Source: Alphaproteobacteria bacterium (GTDB lineage Bacteria > Pseudomonadota > Alphaproteobacteria > Rs-D84). From it: a stretch of DNA of 64,000 nucleotides. Position numbers and translations under genes: made by a program. The notes under the pieces were generated by a model that did not search any database, had not been told where the DNA came from, and saw nothing but the letters and a program-made list of their open reading frames with translations. The stretch lies in contig WRCC01000001.1 of NCBI GenBank assembly GCA_009784235.1, forward strand, positions 177,506 through 241,505. The letters are read 5' to 3'. Positions 30,378-54,114 of the stretch are shown here, piece after piece. Every line of letters starts with the position of its first letter. The stretch's first letter is position 1.

Positions 30378-30398
30378 GGGGCGCATATTTGCGCCCCC
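30378..30398. repeat. palindromic element, short form (GGGGCGCATATTTGCGCCCCC); intergenic terminator-like
   Basis: Perfect GGGGCGCA/TGCGCCCC inverted repeat; member of the family seen at 33389, 40306, 41565, 49992, 54092, 60606. Confidence 0.8.
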
Positions 30399-32541: not shown

Positions 32542-33734
32542 ATTGGCGTCCCTGTGAAATACAATTCTTTGGCGGATTTGATACCGGTTAATTTTACATT
32601 CATTATTGTTCGTTCGGGAATCGGACATCCGGAAATTTTTACCGGGATGTCGTCGGGCGTGCGGCCGATATTATTTGATTCAACCAAGATTTGCGCAGTA
32701 CGCCCAATTTGCGAATTCATAAATTCGCGCATATTGGCGGCGGCAATTTCGGTTGCGATTTTAACGCGGCGCTTTGATTCTGTGCGATGCACCTGGCCCG
32801 GCATTGATGCGGCGGGTGTGCCCGGACGCGGACTGAATGGAAATGCATGCAATCGTATTGGTTTTAATTCGCGTATTAAATCACATGTTTCATTGAAATG
32901 TTCTTCTGTTTCGCCGGGAAATCCGCAGATAAGGTCCCATGAAAAAGTCACACCATTCGCGTAATTGCTTAATTCACGCACCATTTGTGTGGTATGACGA
33001 CGACCCATTTTTGCAAGTATTTCATTGCAGCCCGATTGCATTGATAAATGCATGTGCGATAACATTCGCGGGTTTTCATGCATCAAATCAACAATGCTGC
33101 GCAGCGGTACGCCCGGGTCCAATGATGATAATCGCAAGCGTTGTAAATTCGCATCATTGAACAACAGATTTTTACATAAAATTGCAATGTTTTGATAACT
33201 GGCGATGTCCACACCGGTTAAAACAATTTCACCGTATCCGTTTGCGGTTAATGCGCGTGTGGCCGCCAGAATTTGTTCATACGGAAACGATACATTTTTC
33301 CCGCGCAGAATTCGCGTAATGCAATAAGAGCACGCGTGATTGCATCCGTTTTGTATTTGGACCAGGCCCTTGGAAAGGGATGAATGTTGTAGGGGCGCAT
33401 ATTTGCGCCCCAGGGCGCGAGTACGCGCCCCTACATATTTCGTTGCATCCAGTTTATCTTTGTTATGGATGGTGGCCGCCACGCCAGGGATTTTTTCAAA
33501 ATCGCTCGGTGAATGTGTGGCGGCGCAGCCGGTTACATAAATTGGCATATCTGGGTTTTCACGGGCCAATCGTCGAACGGCTTGGCGCGATTGCTTTTCG
33601 GCTTCGGATGTCACGGCGCATGTGTTAACCACAATGCCGCGCTGGATTCCGCTGTCTGCCAACAAGCCCGCGATTTTATCCCCTTCCAGGATATTCAGGC
33701 GGCATCCAAATGGTACGGAGCGTATATTTTTCAT
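32538..33734 (-). CDS. mtaB: MiaB-family radical-SAM methylthiotransferase (MtaB-like), carrying an in-frame palindromic-element insertion
   Basis: MTTase N-domain (VNTCAVTSEAE). Radical SAM CxxxCxxC (GCNHACSYC). TRAM-like C-terminus. The linker contains 16 residues (VGARTRALGRKYAPLQ) encoded by the palindromic repeat. Confidence 0.8.
   Translation of the reverse strand: MKNIRSVPFGCRLNILEGDKIAGLLADSGIQRGIVVNTCAVTSEAEKQSRQAVRRLARENPDMPIYVTGCAATHSPSDFEKIPGVAATIHNKDKLDATKYVGARTRALGRKYAPLQHSSLSKGLVQIQNGCNHACSYCITRILRGKNVSFPYEQILAATRALTANGYGEIVLTGVDIASYQNIAILCKNLLFNDANLQRLRLSSLDPGVPLRSIVDLMHENPRMLSHMHLSMQSGCNEILAKMGRRHTTQMVRELSNYANGVTFSWDLICGFPGETEEHFNETCDLIRELKPIRLHAFPFSPRPGTPAASMPGQVHRTESKRRVKIATEIAAANMREFMNSQIGRTAQILVESNNIGRTPDDIPVKISGCPIPERTIMNVKLTGIKSAKELYFTGTPI
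33389..33436. repeat. palindromic element, composite long form, inserted in-frame within mtaB
   Basis: GTAGGGGCGCATATTTGCGCCCCAGGGCGCGAGTACGCGCCCCTACAT is 48 nt (a multiple of 3); the ORF reads through it. Confidence 0.8.
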
Positions 33735-40280: not shown

Positions 40281-40305
40281 CATCATGCGCGACGAAAATA
40301 TACAA

Positions 40306-40328
40306 GGGGCGCAAATATGCGCCCCTAC
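40306..40328. repeat. palindromic element, short form (GGGGCGCAAATATGCGCCCCTAC); bidirectional terminator between convergent genes
   Basis: Inverted repeat GGGGCGCA/TGCGCCCC; family member. Confidence 0.8.
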
Positions 40329-41564: not shown

Positions 41565-41613
41565 GTAGGGGCGCATTGAATGCGCCCAGGTGGGCGTGCG
41601 CAGCACGCCCCTA
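41565..41613. repeat. palindromic element, composite long form, between tRNA-Ser and rplY
   Basis: GTAGGGGCGCATTGAATGCGCCCAGGTGGGCGTGCGCAGCACGCCCCTAT: two nested inverted repeats, same architecture as the mtaB and alaS copies. Confidence 0.75.
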
Positions 41614-43988: not shown

Positions 43989-45008
43989 ATGGCACCGAAA
44001 AAAACAAAATCTTATAATTTCCCGGACCCAATTGCGAATGCGGAATTGGTTGGTCATTCGGATGCGCAAAATGCATTTATGGATGCGTGGCGGCGACGCG
44101 CGGAATATCCAATTCACCCAGTCTGGATTTTGTCTGGCGTACGCGGCATTGGCAAAGCGACTTTGGCATACAGGATTGCGCGGTTTGTATTCGGCGAACA
44201 AATGGCGACGGGCGGATATGATGATTCGACTGGCGATTTGTTTGCTGGTGATGCGCCGGTCGCAAACGCGGATAATTCCGATGCTGTTTTTCAAAAAATG
44301 CTGGATGGTGGGTTTGGCGATTTCTTTATAATAGATACCGCGCACAATCTTGATGCGAATGGGCGACCGAATCCAGATGTAAAAAGCATCAGCGTACATA
44401 CGCTGCGCAAAATGATTGAAAAAATGCAATTGTCATCTATGGAGGGCGGATGGCGCGTTGTAATAATTGATTCGCTGGATGAATTGTCGGTTGCGGCGCA
44501 GAATGCAATACTGAAATTGTTAGAAGAACCGCCGGCGAACACCCTATTCTTGGTTGTCGTACATTCTTTGGCAAATACTTTGCCGACAATTCGTTCGCGT
44601 GCACGTGTTGAAAAATTGCACCCGCTGACCATTTCTGAATTGCGTGATGTTGCGCGGATTTTATTGCCCGACGATGAACAAGATTTATCGCCTGCGACTT
44701 TGCGATTGGCGGCGGGTTCATTTGGCCGTATTGCGAATTTAAAGAAAAATGGCGGCGATGAATTGTACGAAGATTTATTGCGCATATGTAAAAACGACCG
44801 TGCGAACGCATCGGATATTATGACGATGGCGTCGGCAATTGCAAAGGCGCCAGAAATGAACGGCATATTATTGGACGCTGTGGCGCATTTCGGATTGGCT
44901 GACTTATATCCGACCGCGACCCAACAAATTGCAGATATAACACGTGTGCATTTGGAACCAGAAATCGCCGCATTCAGAATTATTAGCGATATACGAAAAT
45001 GTTTATAG
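43989..45008 (+). CDS. holB: DNA polymerase III delta-prime subunit
   Basis: AAA+ clamp-loader fold with degenerate Walker A (SGVRGIGKAT), SRC-like region, LLEEPP motif. Confidence 0.75.
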   Translation: MAPKKTKSYNFPDPIANAELVGHSDAQNAFMDAWRRRAEYPIHPVWILSGVRGIGKATLAYRIARFVFGEQMATGGYDDSTGDLFAGDAPVANADNSDAVFQKMLDGGFGDFFIIDTAHNLDANGRPNPDVKSISVHTLRKMIEKMQLSSMEGGWRVVIIDSLDELSVAAQNAILKLLEEPPANTLFLVVVHSLANTLPTIRSRARVEKLHPLTISELRDVARILLPDDEQDLSPATLRLAAGSFGRIANLKKNGGDELYEDLLRICKNDRANASDIMTMASAIAKAPEMNGILLDAVAHFGLADLYPTATQQIADITRVHLEPEIAAFRIISDIRKCL

Positions 45009-45880
45009 ATACCCATTGTCATTTAACCCACCGATATGTTCCAGCAGACGAAGTTTCCGGCGTGATTCATCGTGCGCGTGACGCGGGTGTTGGCGCTTTG
45101 GTTATGTCTGGTGCGGCGGTGGGCGATGCCGCAGATGCGGTCGCGCTGTGTGAAAAATATGATAATCTGTTTTGTACGGTTGGAATTCATCCGGAATATG
45201 CTATCTCCCCCTCCTTGAGGGGGAGTGGCGAGCAAGGCGAGCCGAGGGGGAGCTCCCCCAGTCGCCTGCGGCGACAGCCCCCCTCAAAGGGGGGGGGCAC
45301 AGGCACCGTGCTTGATTACACCAAATTTTTATCACATCCAAAGGTTGTTGGTGTTGGTGAAATCGGTTTGGATTTTTATTATGATAAAGAAATCGAAATA
45401 CACAACAAACAAATCGAATTCTTTCGCGCGCAGTTGAAAATTGCCGCGGATGCTGGGTTGCCAGTGGCGATTCACAGTCGTGCGGCGCGCGCGGAAACGG
45501 TTGAAATTTTATGCGATGCGGCGTATGCGAATTTGGGCGGCGGCCTTGTTCCCGGCGTGATGCATTTTCACTGTATGCCATGGGAATTTACAAAAAAATT
45601 ATTGGACCGCGGATTTTATTTTTCCGCGACTGGGATAATTACATTCAAAAATGCAGATGCCGAACGCGATGTATTTGCGCGCATACCAATCGACCGGATT
45701 GTTATCGAAACGGATGCACCGTGGTGCGCGCCGGTACCATTTCGCGGAAAAACATGCGAACCGGCGATGGTTGTTGAAACCGCACGTGCATTGGCCGAAA
45801 TCCATAGCATATCGTTACCAGAATTGGAAAATATTTTATTCGAAAATACGAAACGTTTGTACCCGAAGATGATTATTTAG
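44999..45880 (+). CDS. tatD: TatD-family metal-dependent DNase, carrying an in-frame GC-rich palindromic insertion (~34 aa)
   Basis: IDTHCHL start, GEIGLDFYYD and HSR motifs. Between GIHPEYA and VLDYTKF the protein reads ISPSLRGSGEQGEPRGSSPSRLRRQPPSKGGGTGT, encoded by nested C5/G5-type hairpins. Confidence 0.8.
   Translation: MFIDTHCHLTHRYVPADEVSGVIHRARDAGVGALVMSGAAVGDAADAVALCEKYDNLFCTVGIHPEYAISPSLRGSGEQGEPRGSSPSRLRRQPPSKGGGTGTVLDYTKFLSHPKVVGVGEIGLDFYYDKEIEIHNKQIEFFRAQLKIAADAGLPVAIHSRAARAETVEILCDAAYANLGGGLVPGVMHFHCMPWEFTKKLLDRGFYFSATGIITFKNADAERDVFARIPIDRIVIETDAPWCAPVPFRGKTCEPAMVVETARALAEIHSISLPELENILFENTKRLYPKMII
45203..45304. repeat. GC-rich palindromic insertion inside tatD (CCCCCTCCTTGAGGGGGAG ... 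GGGGGAGCTCCCCC ... CCCCCCTCAAAGGGGGGGG)
   Basis: Three hairpins of oligo-C/oligo-G arms within ~100 nt; GC content far above the gene average; in frame. Confidence 0.7.
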
Positions 45881-49995: not shown

Positions 49996-50028
49996 GGGCC
50001 CTTGGGCGCGGTTTCCGCGCCCCTACAT
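49992..50028. repeat. palindromic element, composite form, containing the alaS stop codon
   Basis: GTAGGGGCCCTTGGGCGCGGTTTCCGCGCCCCTACAT; TAG at 49993-49995. Confidence 0.75.
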
Positions 50029-54091: not shown

Positions 54092-54114
54092 GGGGCGCAA
54101 ATATGCGCCCCTAC
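54092..54114. repeat. palindromic element, short form (GGGGCGCAAATATGCGCCCCTAC)
   Basis: Identical core to the copy at 40306. Confidence 0.8.

What the first reader, a model, noticed from the sequence alone, without database searches (positions are those of the whole stretch)
45203..45304. Second, different GC-rich palindromic insertion in-frame inside tatD
Between the conserved GIHPEYA and VLDYTKF segments of TatD lies ~100 nt of nested oligo-C/oligo-G hairpins (CCCCCTCCTTGAGGGGGAG; GGGGGAGCTCCCCC; CCCCCCTCAAAGGGGGGGG), translated as ISPSLRGSGEQGEPRGSSPSRLRRQPPSKGGGTGT. It is a distinct element type from the GGGGCGC family. This suggests at least two classes of mobile palindromes that can colonise coding sequence in this genome. 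The homopolymeric G/C tracts are also candidates for slipped-strand phase variation of tatD.
Basis: seen in the sequence. Interest (0 to 1): 0.66.

Follow-up and report, generated by a model that had tools for sequence, protein, structure and literature searches.

The report
Mobile palindromic repeat inside tatD
A 99-base GC-rich DNA repeat that folds into five hairpins sits in frame inside an otherwise intact tatD gene; the same repeat occurs in other genes of related bacteria, where some copies carry a small nuclease gene at their centre, which hints at how such repeats spread.

Summary
Window 45203-45301 (99 nt, 73% GC against 46.5% for the window) is an in-frame insertion after Ala68 of an intact TatD ORF (44999-45880). 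It forms five hairpins.

It is one copy of a dispersed repeat family, not a TatD-specific loop. Near-identical elements lie in frame in tatD of a relative with 58% protein identity, and in queA, tgt, gatB and a small ORF. They also lie between genes in a Rickettsiales MAG. Hairpins H1, H3 and H5 are invariant. H2 and H4 differ between copies but keep pairing through compensatory changes.

AlphaFold models the 33 inserted residues as a disordered loop on an intact TIM barrel.

New lead: in one relative, a DUF559 (Vsr-like nuclease) ORF sits exactly at the centre of the H3 palindrome of this family. All seven DUF559 genes examined in this clade have a nested palindromic element flanking them or directly upstream. 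The tatD copy therefore looks like the ORF-less form of a nuclease-associated element.

The phase-variation idea is not supported. Four assemblies share the same G9 and C6 tracts, although two others end inside G9. No second copy lies in the 64 kb window.

Verdict: an element like the Rickettsia palindromic elements (RPEs), with a possibly new nuclease link.

The parts
44999..45880 (+). tatD ORF (293 aa), the host gene, intact
   Evidence: ORF. PDB TatD/YcfH matches at E = 3.6e-39, split around the insert. Metal-ligand positions H6, H8, E121, H159, H189 and D239 are invariant or nearly so across 25 orthologues. AlphaFold pLDDT 88.8.
45203..45301 (+). The inserted element: 99 nt, 33 codons (residues 69-101), an ORF-less copy of a five-hairpin nested-palindrome repeat family
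   Evidence: Boundaries come from comparison with the empty site in L010. The covariance model R1 scores 99.8 bits, E = 6e-21.
45205..45225 (+). H1, terminal hairpin CTCCCCCTC-CTT-GAGGGGGAG (9 bp stem), stem invariant in all full copies
   Evidence: helix 1: 9 of 9 pairs never vary.
45226..45243 (+). H2, variable hairpin position; degenerate in this copy (GGCGAGC-AAG-GCGAGCC reads as a direct repeat rather than an inverted one)
   Evidence: The other seven copies carry perfect 5-8 bp triloop hairpins with six distinct stem sequences. helix 2: 4 pairs with changes on both sides.
45244..45259 (+). H3, central palindrome GAGGGGGAG|CTCCCCC. Its centre (AG^CT) is where the DUF559 ORF sits in L027. 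The 3' arm is C5 here and C6 in the other full copies
45261..45275 (+). H4, variable hairpin GTCGCC-TGC-GGCGAC
   Evidence: helix 4: 3 pairs with compensatory changes.
45277..45298 (+). H5, terminal hairpin GCCCCCCTC-AAA-GGGGGGGGGC, approximately the reverse complement of H1. It contains the C6 tract (45278-45283) and the G9 tract (45289-45297)
   Evidence: Contigs L031 and L032 end inside this G run.

Best explanation
Window 45203-45301 is an ORF-less copy of a dispersed repeat of about 100 bp. The repeat has a terminal hairpin (H1), a variable hairpin (H2), a central palindrome (H3), a second variable hairpin (H4) and a second terminal hairpin (H5, approximately the reverse complement of H1). 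It inserted after the Ala68 codon of tatD.

Shown at the sequence level:
- Two of the three frames of the element lack stop codons, and the net length is 33 codons. The element is therefore read through and adds a Gly/Ser/Pro/Arg-rich, disordered loop of 33 residues between strand beta3 and the next helix of the TIM barrel.
- The catalytic residues are untouched.

Inferred:
- The insertion is neutral or nearly neutral selfish DNA that persists where a protein tolerates a loop.
- H1, H3 and H5 all carry the same 9-mer, GAGGGGGAG or its complement. These are probably protein-recognition sites. H2 and H4 only need to be hairpins.
- The enzyme that goes with the family is a DUF559 (Vsr-like PD-(D/E)xK) nuclease. 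Its ORF occupies the exact centre of H3 in an ORF-bearing copy.
- The short elements are either the uncut target sites or ORF-less derivatives of that nuclease element. They would spread by nuclease-induced breaks repaired from another copy (homing-like gene conversion), or they are mobilised in trans.

My confidence that this is a dispersed palindromic repeat tolerated in frame is about 0.85. My confidence that the DUF559 nuclease is its functional partner is about 0.4.
For: Insertion and tolerance:
- PDB TatD homologues align on both sides with about 28 extra residues in between.
- The closest orthologues (P0001-P0006, 65-75% identity) lack the insert.
- AlphaFold gives pLDDT below 50 only for residues 72-101, with the rest of the barrel confident.

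Family:
- Pattern scans found further copies in metagenome contigs L015 (queA), L016 (78-aa ORF), L017 (gatB) and L012, which is the same contig as L006 and carries the same tatD gene as L005.
- Three contigs of the MAG 'Rickettsiales bacterium Mcx344_bin51' carry copies.
- The covariance model adds L027 2404-2506 in tgt at 107 bits, plus diverged relatives in L008, L009, L021 and L026.
- The tgt copy (L027) and the tatD copy (L005) differ at only about 4 of 102 positions, including H2 and H4, although they lie in different genes.

Structure:
- 98.9% of cells are paired.
- 7 pairs show changes on both sides (0 of 500 shuffles reach this; slid controls give at most 2).
- All covariation is in H2 and H4. 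H1 and H3 never vary, and H5 varies only by single-sided changes at two pairs.

Nuclease link:
- L027 reads: left half (H1, H2, GAGGGGGAGCT; 1-39), then a DUF559 cassette (40-448), then the right half (AGCTCC..CCCCCCCTC, H4, H5, ACA; 449-509). The whole is in one frame inside queA.
- L015 has a full element, then DUF559 (Pfam E = 1.6e-30), then a decayed right half, in frame in queA.
- Of 7 DUF559 genes examined, 5 have an exact inverted repeat of at least 13 nt between their two flanks, against 1 of 95 control genes. The other 2 have an element directly upstream.
- The D...E-x-D...H core of DUF559 is conserved.
- DUF559 is grouped with Vsr and the homing endonuclease I-Bth0305I (PMC3424549).
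Against: - Only one copy lies in the 64 kb window, and there is no DUF559 gene there. Activity in this genome is therefore unproven.
- The link between this exact family and DUF559 rests on one genomic site, queA, seen in two contigs (L015 and L027) that may be orthologous. In L015 the ORF lies beside a complete element rather than inside H3.
- No PD-(D/E)xK nuclease of this type is known to move DNA by itself.
- No target-site duplication or clear target motif was found.
- Translation of the insert is inferred from frame conservation only.
- The near-identity of H1, H3 and H5 across genomes could reflect recent horizontal spread rather than selection.
Confidence: 0.7

Rival explanations
1. 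The short element is an ordinary REP- or MITE-type repeat moved by some other enzyme, such as a RAYT or IS transposase encoded elsewhere. The DUF559 ORFs would then be secondary parasites that home into long palindromes and have no role in spreading the 100-bp element.
For: - DUF559 ORFs occur in at least two different palindrome families (GAGGGGGAG-type and GGGTGGGG-type). This fits an ORF that targets palindromes in general.
- In L015 and L026 the ORF lies next to a complete element, not inside it.
- Consensus copies carry TGTC before H1 and H2, and before H4 on the other strand. This resembles the TGTC variant of CGTC-tagged REPs of Alphaproteobacteria (PMC3733652).
Against: - No transposase with these termini was seen in any locus held.
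- CGTC REPs themselves have no known transposase (PMC3733652).
- The element has no target-site duplication.
Confidence: 0.3
2. The insert is an old, vertically inherited TatD loop of this clade that happens to be palindromic. It is not a mobile element.
For: P0007 (L005) carries the same element at exactly the same codon position. P0016 and P0012 have related or remnant hairpins a few codons downstream.
Against: - The same DNA is found in queA, tgt, gatB and intergenic DNA.
- The closest TatD orthologues lack it.
- The two tatD copies use different reading frames through H1.
- The element DNA is far more conserved than the flanking coding DNA (58% protein identity).
Confidence: 0.04
3. The G9 and C6 tracts make tatD a phase-variable (contingency) gene, switched on and off by slipped-strand mispairing.
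For: - A G9 run lies inside the ORF.
- Compared with the family consensus, this copy has -1 in the C tract of H3 and +1 in the G tract of H5. Tract lengths have therefore changed in the past, in a way that restored the frame.
- Two assemblies end inside the G run.
Against: - Four independent assemblies have identical tract lengths and an open frame.
- Other copies have only G6.
- tatD is a housekeeping-type gene with no obvious benefit from switching.
- Contig ends at G-rich hairpins are a common sequencing effect.
Confidence: 0.07
4. The element acts at the RNA level, either as a structured regulatory RNA or as an intervening sequence removed from the mRNA.
For: Strong predicted structure and compensatory changes.
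Against: - No Rfam family reaches its threshold (best 19.4 bits against a cut-off of 37).
- Both strands score as the element, as expected for DNA palindromes.
- Every genic copy keeps the host frame and avoids the TGA-containing frame of H1. That would be unnecessary if the element were spliced out.
Confidence: 0.04

Closest known systems
Rickettsia palindromic elements (RPEs; Ogata et al. 2000, as summarised in PMC10969869)
   Same: Palindromic repeats of about 100-150 bp in an alphaproteobacterium. They are dispersed and repeatedly inserted in frame into unrelated housekeeping genes, where they add a tolerated peptide. No transposase is known.
   Different: - This element is GC-rich, with G5-9/C5-6 cores in a 46% GC genome.
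- It has a five-hairpin modular layout with invariant and covarying modules.
- It comes from a different, uncultured lineage.
- Homology to the RPE consensus sequences was not tested.
- An ORF-bearing form with a DUF559 nuclease exists. To my knowledge this has not been reported for RPEs.
CGTC-tagged REPs of Alphaproteobacteria (Di Nocera et al. 2013, PMC3733652), which include RPE-4 and RPE-6
   Same: Short hairpin repeats, often paired head to head into larger palindromes. Some lie inside genes, and they have no dedicated transposase. A TGTC tag variant precedes H1 and H2 in consensus copies.
   Different: - The stems are GC-rich rather than starting with two A-T pairs.
- There is no CCA tail.
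- The window copy has TATC rather than TGTC.
- The unit is a fixed five-hairpin array, not a single 20-40 bp hairpin.
Homing endonuclease genes of the Vsr-like fold (I-Bth0305I) and other free-standing homing endonucleases
   Same: A small nuclease ORF sits in the middle of a long, specific (here palindromic) sequence, and intact ORF-less versions of that sequence exist elsewhere. DUF559 is grouped with Vsr and I-Bth0305I (PMC3424549).
   Different: - There is no intron or intein.
- The ORF is read in frame with the host gene.
- The target is itself a dispersed repeat rather than a conserved host gene site.
- Nuclease activity and specificity are untested.
GC clusters and double-hairpin elements of fungal and algal mitochondria (from memory; reviews found were not read)
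   Same: GC-rich hairpin repeats in AT-richer genomes that can sit inside coding sequence and that accompany mobile endonuclease ORFs.
   Different: These are organellar and unrelated in sequence. This is a recalled analogy only.
MITEs (for example Correia, ERIC, Nezha; PMC10969869)
   Same: Small, non-coding elements with terminal inverted repeats and strong secondary structure. They can make in-frame fusions.
   Different: No target-site duplication was found. The only ORF-bearing relative encodes a nuclease, not a DDE or tyrosine transposase.

Membership tests
TatD hydrolase (host gene) | PF01026 TIM-barrel fold with conserved metal ligands (HxH, E, H, H, D) | tested here: met
   PDB matches at 3.6e-39. 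Homologues are all annotated PF01026. Ligand positions are conserved. The barrel is modelled confidently.
Rickettsia palindromic elements (RPE) | Palindromic repeat of about 100-150 bp | tested here: met
   99-103 nt, five hairpins, overall palindrome.
Rickettsia palindromic elements (RPE) | Many dispersed copies within one genome | tested here: inconclusive
   One copy in the 64 kb window. At least 4 full or partial copies on 3 contigs of MAG Mcx344_bin51. The rest of this genome could not be read.
Rickettsia palindromic elements (RPE) | In-frame insertion into unrelated protein-coding genes | tested here: met
   tatD twice, queA, tgt and gatB, all with the frame kept.
Rickettsia palindromic elements (RPE) | Sequence homology to the RPE-1 to RPE-10 consensus sequences | not tested
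   No RPE consensus was available in the tools. The element is therefore not filed as an RPE, only as RPE-like.
GTAG/CGTC-tagged REPs | Unpaired GTAG or CGTC (TGTC/CCTC) tag at one end of the hairpin | tested here: inconclusive
   TGTC precedes H1 in 5 of 8 full copies; the window copy has TATC, and L015 and L016 also deviate. H2 and the complement of H4 often start with TGTC. Definition taken from PMC3733652.
GTAG/CGTC-tagged REPs | Single 8-9 bp stem starting with two A-T pairs, a 4-5 nt loop and a CCA tail | tested here: not met
   The H1 stem is CTCCCCCTC/GAGGGGGAG with a 3-nt loop and no CCA tail.
GTAG/CGTC-tagged REPs | Associated RAYT (tyrosine transposase) gene | not tested
   The window ORFs were not scanned for PF01797.
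MITE | Terminal inverted repeats | tested here: met
   H1 and H5 with TGT...ACA ends.
MITE | Target-site duplication | tested here: not met
   No flanking direct repeat in the eight copies inspected by eye.
MITE | Autonomous partner with the same ends that encodes a transposase | tested here: inconclusive
   A partner with the same halves exists (L027), but it encodes a DUF559 nuclease, not a known transposase.
Homing endonuclease gene with its target site | Nuclease ORF interrupts a long, specific sequence, and intact ORF-less versions of that sequence exist | tested here: met
   In L027 the ORF lies between GAGGGGGAGCT and AGCTCC...; H3 is intact in the window and 7 other copies. The same layout is seen in the GGGTGGGG family.
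Homing endonuclease gene with its target site | Enzyme cleaves the ORF-less site, and the ORF is copied in by repair | not testable with these tools
   This needs biochemistry or genetics.
Phase-variable contingency locus | Homopolymer of at least 8 nt inside the ORF | tested here: met
   G9 at 45289-45297.
Phase-variable contingency locus | Tract length varies between cells or strains | tested here: inconclusive
   The tracts are identical in 4 assemblies. Two assemblies stop inside the tract. Reads were not available.

The most novel reading that the evidence does not exclude
DUF559 (Vsr-like) nucleases may be the missing partner enzyme of the RPE- and REP-like nested palindromic repeats of intracellular or host-associated Alphaproteobacteria. 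The nuclease ORF lives in the central palindrome of the repeat. The abundant ORF-less copies, such as the one in tatD, would be its substrates or derivatives. The repeats would reach new sites, including coding sequence, through nuclease-triggered break repair rather than transposition.
Probability: 0.35. Interest if true: 0.8.

Novelty: new variant of a known kind. Interest (0 to 1): 0.62.

Why it matters
In-frame palindromic repeats have been known in Rickettsia since 2000. How they move has stayed open, and CGTC-type REPs of Alphaproteobacteria 'apparently lack a dedicated transposase' (PMC3733652).

This family offers a concrete, testable candidate: a 110-residue nuclease whose gene sits exactly in the repeat's central 18-bp palindrome. 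The family also has a clean division into invariant modules (H1, H3, H5) and modules constrained only in structure (H2, H4), which predicts the binding sites.

The family also gives natural examples of where enzymes (TatD, Tgt, QueA, GatB) tolerate loop insertions of about 33 residues, and in QueA a whole inserted nuclease domain.

For genome annotation, it warns that low-complexity G/S/P/R loops in proteins from such MAGs can be repeat DNA.

Tried and rejected
- Profile search with the translated element against 5.8 billion proteins returned only the L016 ORF. A phmmer search of the window peptide against 1.84 billion representatives returned only a truncated TatD from the query's own 90% cluster and one repeat-derived ORF (P0244). 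Peptide-level searches are too weak or are filtered for this low-complexity sequence.
- Rfam: nothing reaches threshold.
- Viral contigs and plasmids: no copy.
- The high-GC hits L013, L014, L018, L019, L022 and L024 from the pattern scans are chance matches.
- Target motif: CATCCGGAA lies 5-8 nt upstream of the element in both tatD and gatB, and ACTGGA lies near the gatB, tgt and orf78 copies. The other sites do not share these, so I do not claim a target.
- Assembly artefact: rejected because four assemblies are identical.
- The divergence of L001 from the window after 48525 is a chimeric contig end inside alaS and is unrelated.
- Among the 120 best DUF559 homologues, only P0142 (L027) carries peptides of this family. 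More ORF-bearing copies of this exact family could not be found.
- Literature searches for DUF559 together with palindromic repeats or homing found nothing specific.

Full report
**1. What is there**

The ORF 44999-45880 (+) encodes a 293-aa TatD hydrolase. Solved TatD/YcfH structures align to residues 1-69 and 110-288 (E = 3.6e-39). About 28 residues in between have no counterpart.

In an alignment of 25 close homologues, the nearest ones (P0001-P0006, 65-75% identity) go straight from HPEYA to G(K/R)xxP(D/N)Y. The window protein has 33 extra residues there, ISPSLRGSGEQGEPRGSSPSRLRRQPPSKGGGT. Comparison with the empty site of L010 places the insertion at 45203-45301, which is 99 nt.

The DNA is 73% GC in a window of 46.5% GC.
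- H1 45205-45225
- H2 45226-45243 (degenerate here)
- H3 45244-45259
- H4 45261-45275
- H5 45277-45298

The whole segment is an imperfect palindrome. The motifs are far above chance: 0.02 matches expected and a fold z-score of -4.2. The DNA is identical in four independent assemblies. The window is alphaproteobacterial, with a two-piece alpha tmRNA. The protein is NCBI MCL2538060.1, labelled 'MAG: Alphaproteobacteria bacterium'.

**2. It is a repeat family, not a TatD peculiarity**

P0007, a TatD with only 58% identity, carries the same element at the same codon position. H1 and H3 are identical base for base and H5 nearly so. H2 and H4 differ, and H1 is read in a different frame (LPLLEGE instead of SPSLRGS).

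A pattern scan of metagenome contigs found further copies:
- in frame in queA (L015)
- in frame in gatB (L017)
- in a 78-aa ORF (L016)

A scan of species-representative genomes found three copies on three contigs of the MAG 'Rickettsiales bacterium Mcx344_bin51'. These are intergenic or at gene starts.

A covariance model built from seven copies scores all of them at 96-115 bits. It also finds:
- another full copy in frame in tgt, next to the CxCxxC zinc motif (L027 2404-2506, 107 bits)
- half elements (L023; L021 4753-4838)
- diverged relatives with the same architecture (L008, which is the P0016 tatD insert; L009; L021; L026)

In the window itself the model finds only this one copy. The tgt copy and the L005 tatD copy differ at about 4 of 102 positions, including H2 and H4, although they are in different genes and samples. 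That is what recent copying looks like.

No target-site duplication is visible. Most copies end TGT...ACA.

**3. Anatomy and constraint**

Across eight full copies, H1 and H3 never vary, and H5 shows only single-sided changes at two pairs. H2 and H4 have different sequences in nearly every copy but remain perfect hairpins (often GCGAAGC-type triloops). Overall 98.9% of cells are paired. Seven pairs have changes on both sides; 0 of 500 shuffles reach that number, and slid controls give at most 2. One caveat: the alignment was fitted to the model.

H1, H3 and H5 all consist of the 9-mer GAGGGGGAG and its complement, in alternating orientation. One frame of H1 contains TGA (CCT TGA GGG). Every genic copy uses one of the two open frames.

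The window copy is the most decayed one:
- H2 is broken.
- The C tract of H3 is C5, where the other full copies have C6.
- The G tract of H5 is one base longer than the consensus (G9).

The last two changes together restore the TatD frame.

**4. Effect on TatD**

AlphaFold with the 25-sequence alignment gives a confident TIM barrel (pLDDT 88.8, pTM 0.87). Confidence is below 50 only for residues 72-101, between strand 57-61 and helix 106-110. The metal-ligand positions are conserved. The gene therefore looks functional, and the insert looks like a floppy surface loop. This is inferred, since no expression data are available.

TatD in this clade is riddled with such insertions:
- P0016 and P0012 have a related element or a solo hairpin a few codons downstream.
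- P0007 and P0012 have another palindromic insertion before PGVMH. The one in L009 is a GTAG-tagged GGGGCGC element.

I cannot tell whether the window and L005 copies descend from one insertion or from two at the same codon.

**5. The nuclease lead**

In L015, queA is interrupted in frame by a full element followed by a DUF559 domain (PF04480, E = 1.6e-30).

L027 comes from a sample (ERZ27257297) that also contains a contig identical to the window. Its layout is cleaner:
- 1-39: H1, H2 and the left arm of H3 (...GAGGGGGAGCT)
- 40-448: a DUF559 cassette
- 449-509: AGCTCC...CCCCCCCTC, then H4 (GCCGCC-TTC-GGCGGC), then H5 (CTCCCCCTC-AAG-AAGGGGGAG) and ACA

All of this lies in one reading frame inside a truncated queA. 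The nuclease ORF therefore sits at the centre of the H3 palindrome.

I then looked at six further DUF559 genes of the clade. Four of them (L009, L025, L029, L030) lie in the central stem of a different nested palindrome (arms 26-79 nt, terminal hairpin CCTGCCCC-TTG(A/T)-(T)GGGGCGGG, central stem GGGTGGGG/CCCCACCC). Of the other two, L026 has a complete ORF-less element of that second family immediately upstream, and L028 has its left arm directly upstream of the ORF and is also flanked by an unrelated 32-nt inverted repeat.

Including L027, five of these seven DUF559 genes have an exact inverted repeat of at least 13 nt between their flanks. Only 1 of 95 control genes does.

The D...ExD...H core of DUF559 is conserved. 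The nearest solved structure is 3HRL. A survey of PD-(D/E)xK enzymes groups Vsr, DUF559 and the homing endonuclease I-Bth0305I together (PMC3424549). I found no paper that links DUF559 to palindromic repeats, but that library is not exhaustive.

**6. Mechanism**

Shown:
- This is a dispersed, structured palindromic repeat.
- It is tolerated in frame.
- ORF-bearing relatives carry a nuclease gene at the centre of the palindrome.

Inferred:
- The nuclease recognises the GAGGGGGAG-type modules.
- Either it homes into ORF-less copies, or it creates the breaks through which copies are pasted into new sites by repair.
- Copies persist in coding DNA only where a disordered loop is harmless.

The main rival is that DUF559 is merely a secondary invader of palindromes and that the short element is moved by something else.

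**7. Phase variation**

A G9 run in an ORF could in principle slip, and the compensating -1 and +1 changes show that tract lengths have changed over evolutionary time. However, four assemblies agree exactly. Two other assemblies stop after 5 and 6 G's, which is ambiguous because G-rich hairpins also defeat sequencing. I rate programmed switching as unlikely.

**8. Comparison and novelty**

Functionally this is the RPE phenomenon (PMC10969869) in another alphaproteobacterial lineage. It has some resemblance to TGTC/CGTC-tagged REPs (PMC3733652). I do not file it in either family: homology to RPEs was not tested, and the REP stem, loop and tail rules are not met. The modular five-hairpin design and the DUF559-bearing form are the new aspects.

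I believe the source samples are termite-gut metagenomes, but that is from memory and was not verified here.

Noticed in passing
window 30378-30397, 33392-33440, 40305-40326, 41569-41610, 50004-50022, 54092-54111: A second repeat family: GGGGCGC-N4-6-GCGCCCC hairpins, mostly tagged GTAG...CTAC. These look like classical GTAG REPs, which are the RAYT-associated type. The copy at 33392-33440 is a dimer and lies inside a 398-aa ORF on the minus strand. A member of this family is inserted in frame in tatD of L009.
   Followed up: partly
L015 33-1634 (-) and L027 1-755: queA carries an in-frame DUF559 nuclease domain of about 110 residues next to or inside the palindromic element, giving a 533-aa QueA in L015. 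In L027 the middle of queA is missing, so that copy may be a pseudogene or a misassembly.
   Followed up: partly
L027 2404-2506: A full copy of the element lies in frame in tgt, directly after the CxCxxC zinc-binding motif. It is about 96% identical to the tatD copy of L005. tgt and queA are neighbours on this contig, and both are invaded.
   Followed up: partly
L009 2968-3514, L025 9906-10475, L029 2911-3466, L030 12-553, L026 9805-9961: A second nested-palindrome family (terminal hairpin CCTGCCCC-TTGA-GGGGCGGG, central stem GGGTGGGG/CCCCACCC). It occurs with a DUF559 ORF filling the central loop, and once (L026) as an ORF-less 157-nt element. In L009 and L025 it lies at the same place, between the PBP5 gene and holB, just upstream of tatD.
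   Followed up: yes
L031 end (8303) and L032 end (3647), which correspond to window 45293 and 45294: Two independent assemblies of the same organism terminate inside the G9 run of H5, after 5 and 6 G's. NCBI lists the resulting 98-aa fragment as a partial TatD (MCL2889813.1).
   Followed up: partly
tatD orthologues P0001, P0003, P0005, P0006, P0007, P0012, P0017, P0046, P0048 (alignment A1, columns 201-218 and 257-290): TatD of this clade has at least three further sites with variable insertions of 8-35 residues. Those in P0007 and P0012 before PGVMH are palindromic DNA.
   Followed up: partly
window 45190-45198; L017 about 118-126: The 9-mer CATCCGGAA lies 5-8 nt upstream of the element in both tatD and gatB. 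ACTGGA lies just upstream in gatB, tgt and the L016 ORF. This could be a weak target preference or coincidence; there are too few sites to test.
   Followed up: no
L021 about 270-290 and 400-420: The Mcx344 copy is itself nested inside another inverted repeat (TCGTCATTGCG...CGCAATGACGA, a CGTC-tagged type). Different palindromic families therefore insert into one another.
   Followed up: no
P0244 (229 aa, source unknown): An ORF made of three tandem repeats that contain SPSRLRRQPPPRGG. This peptide matches the translation of the H3-H4-H5 part of the window element, so a related module is used in another repeat type elsewhere.
   Followed up: no
L026 511-1575: A reverse-transcriptase (RVT_1) gene lies in the same Rickettsiales-like contig, which also carries several palindromic elements.
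   Followed up: no
window 48525 onward, compared with L001: Contig L001 switches to a different alaS sequence inside a conserved alaS motif. This is a chimeric assembly end and not a feature of the genome.
   Followed up: yes
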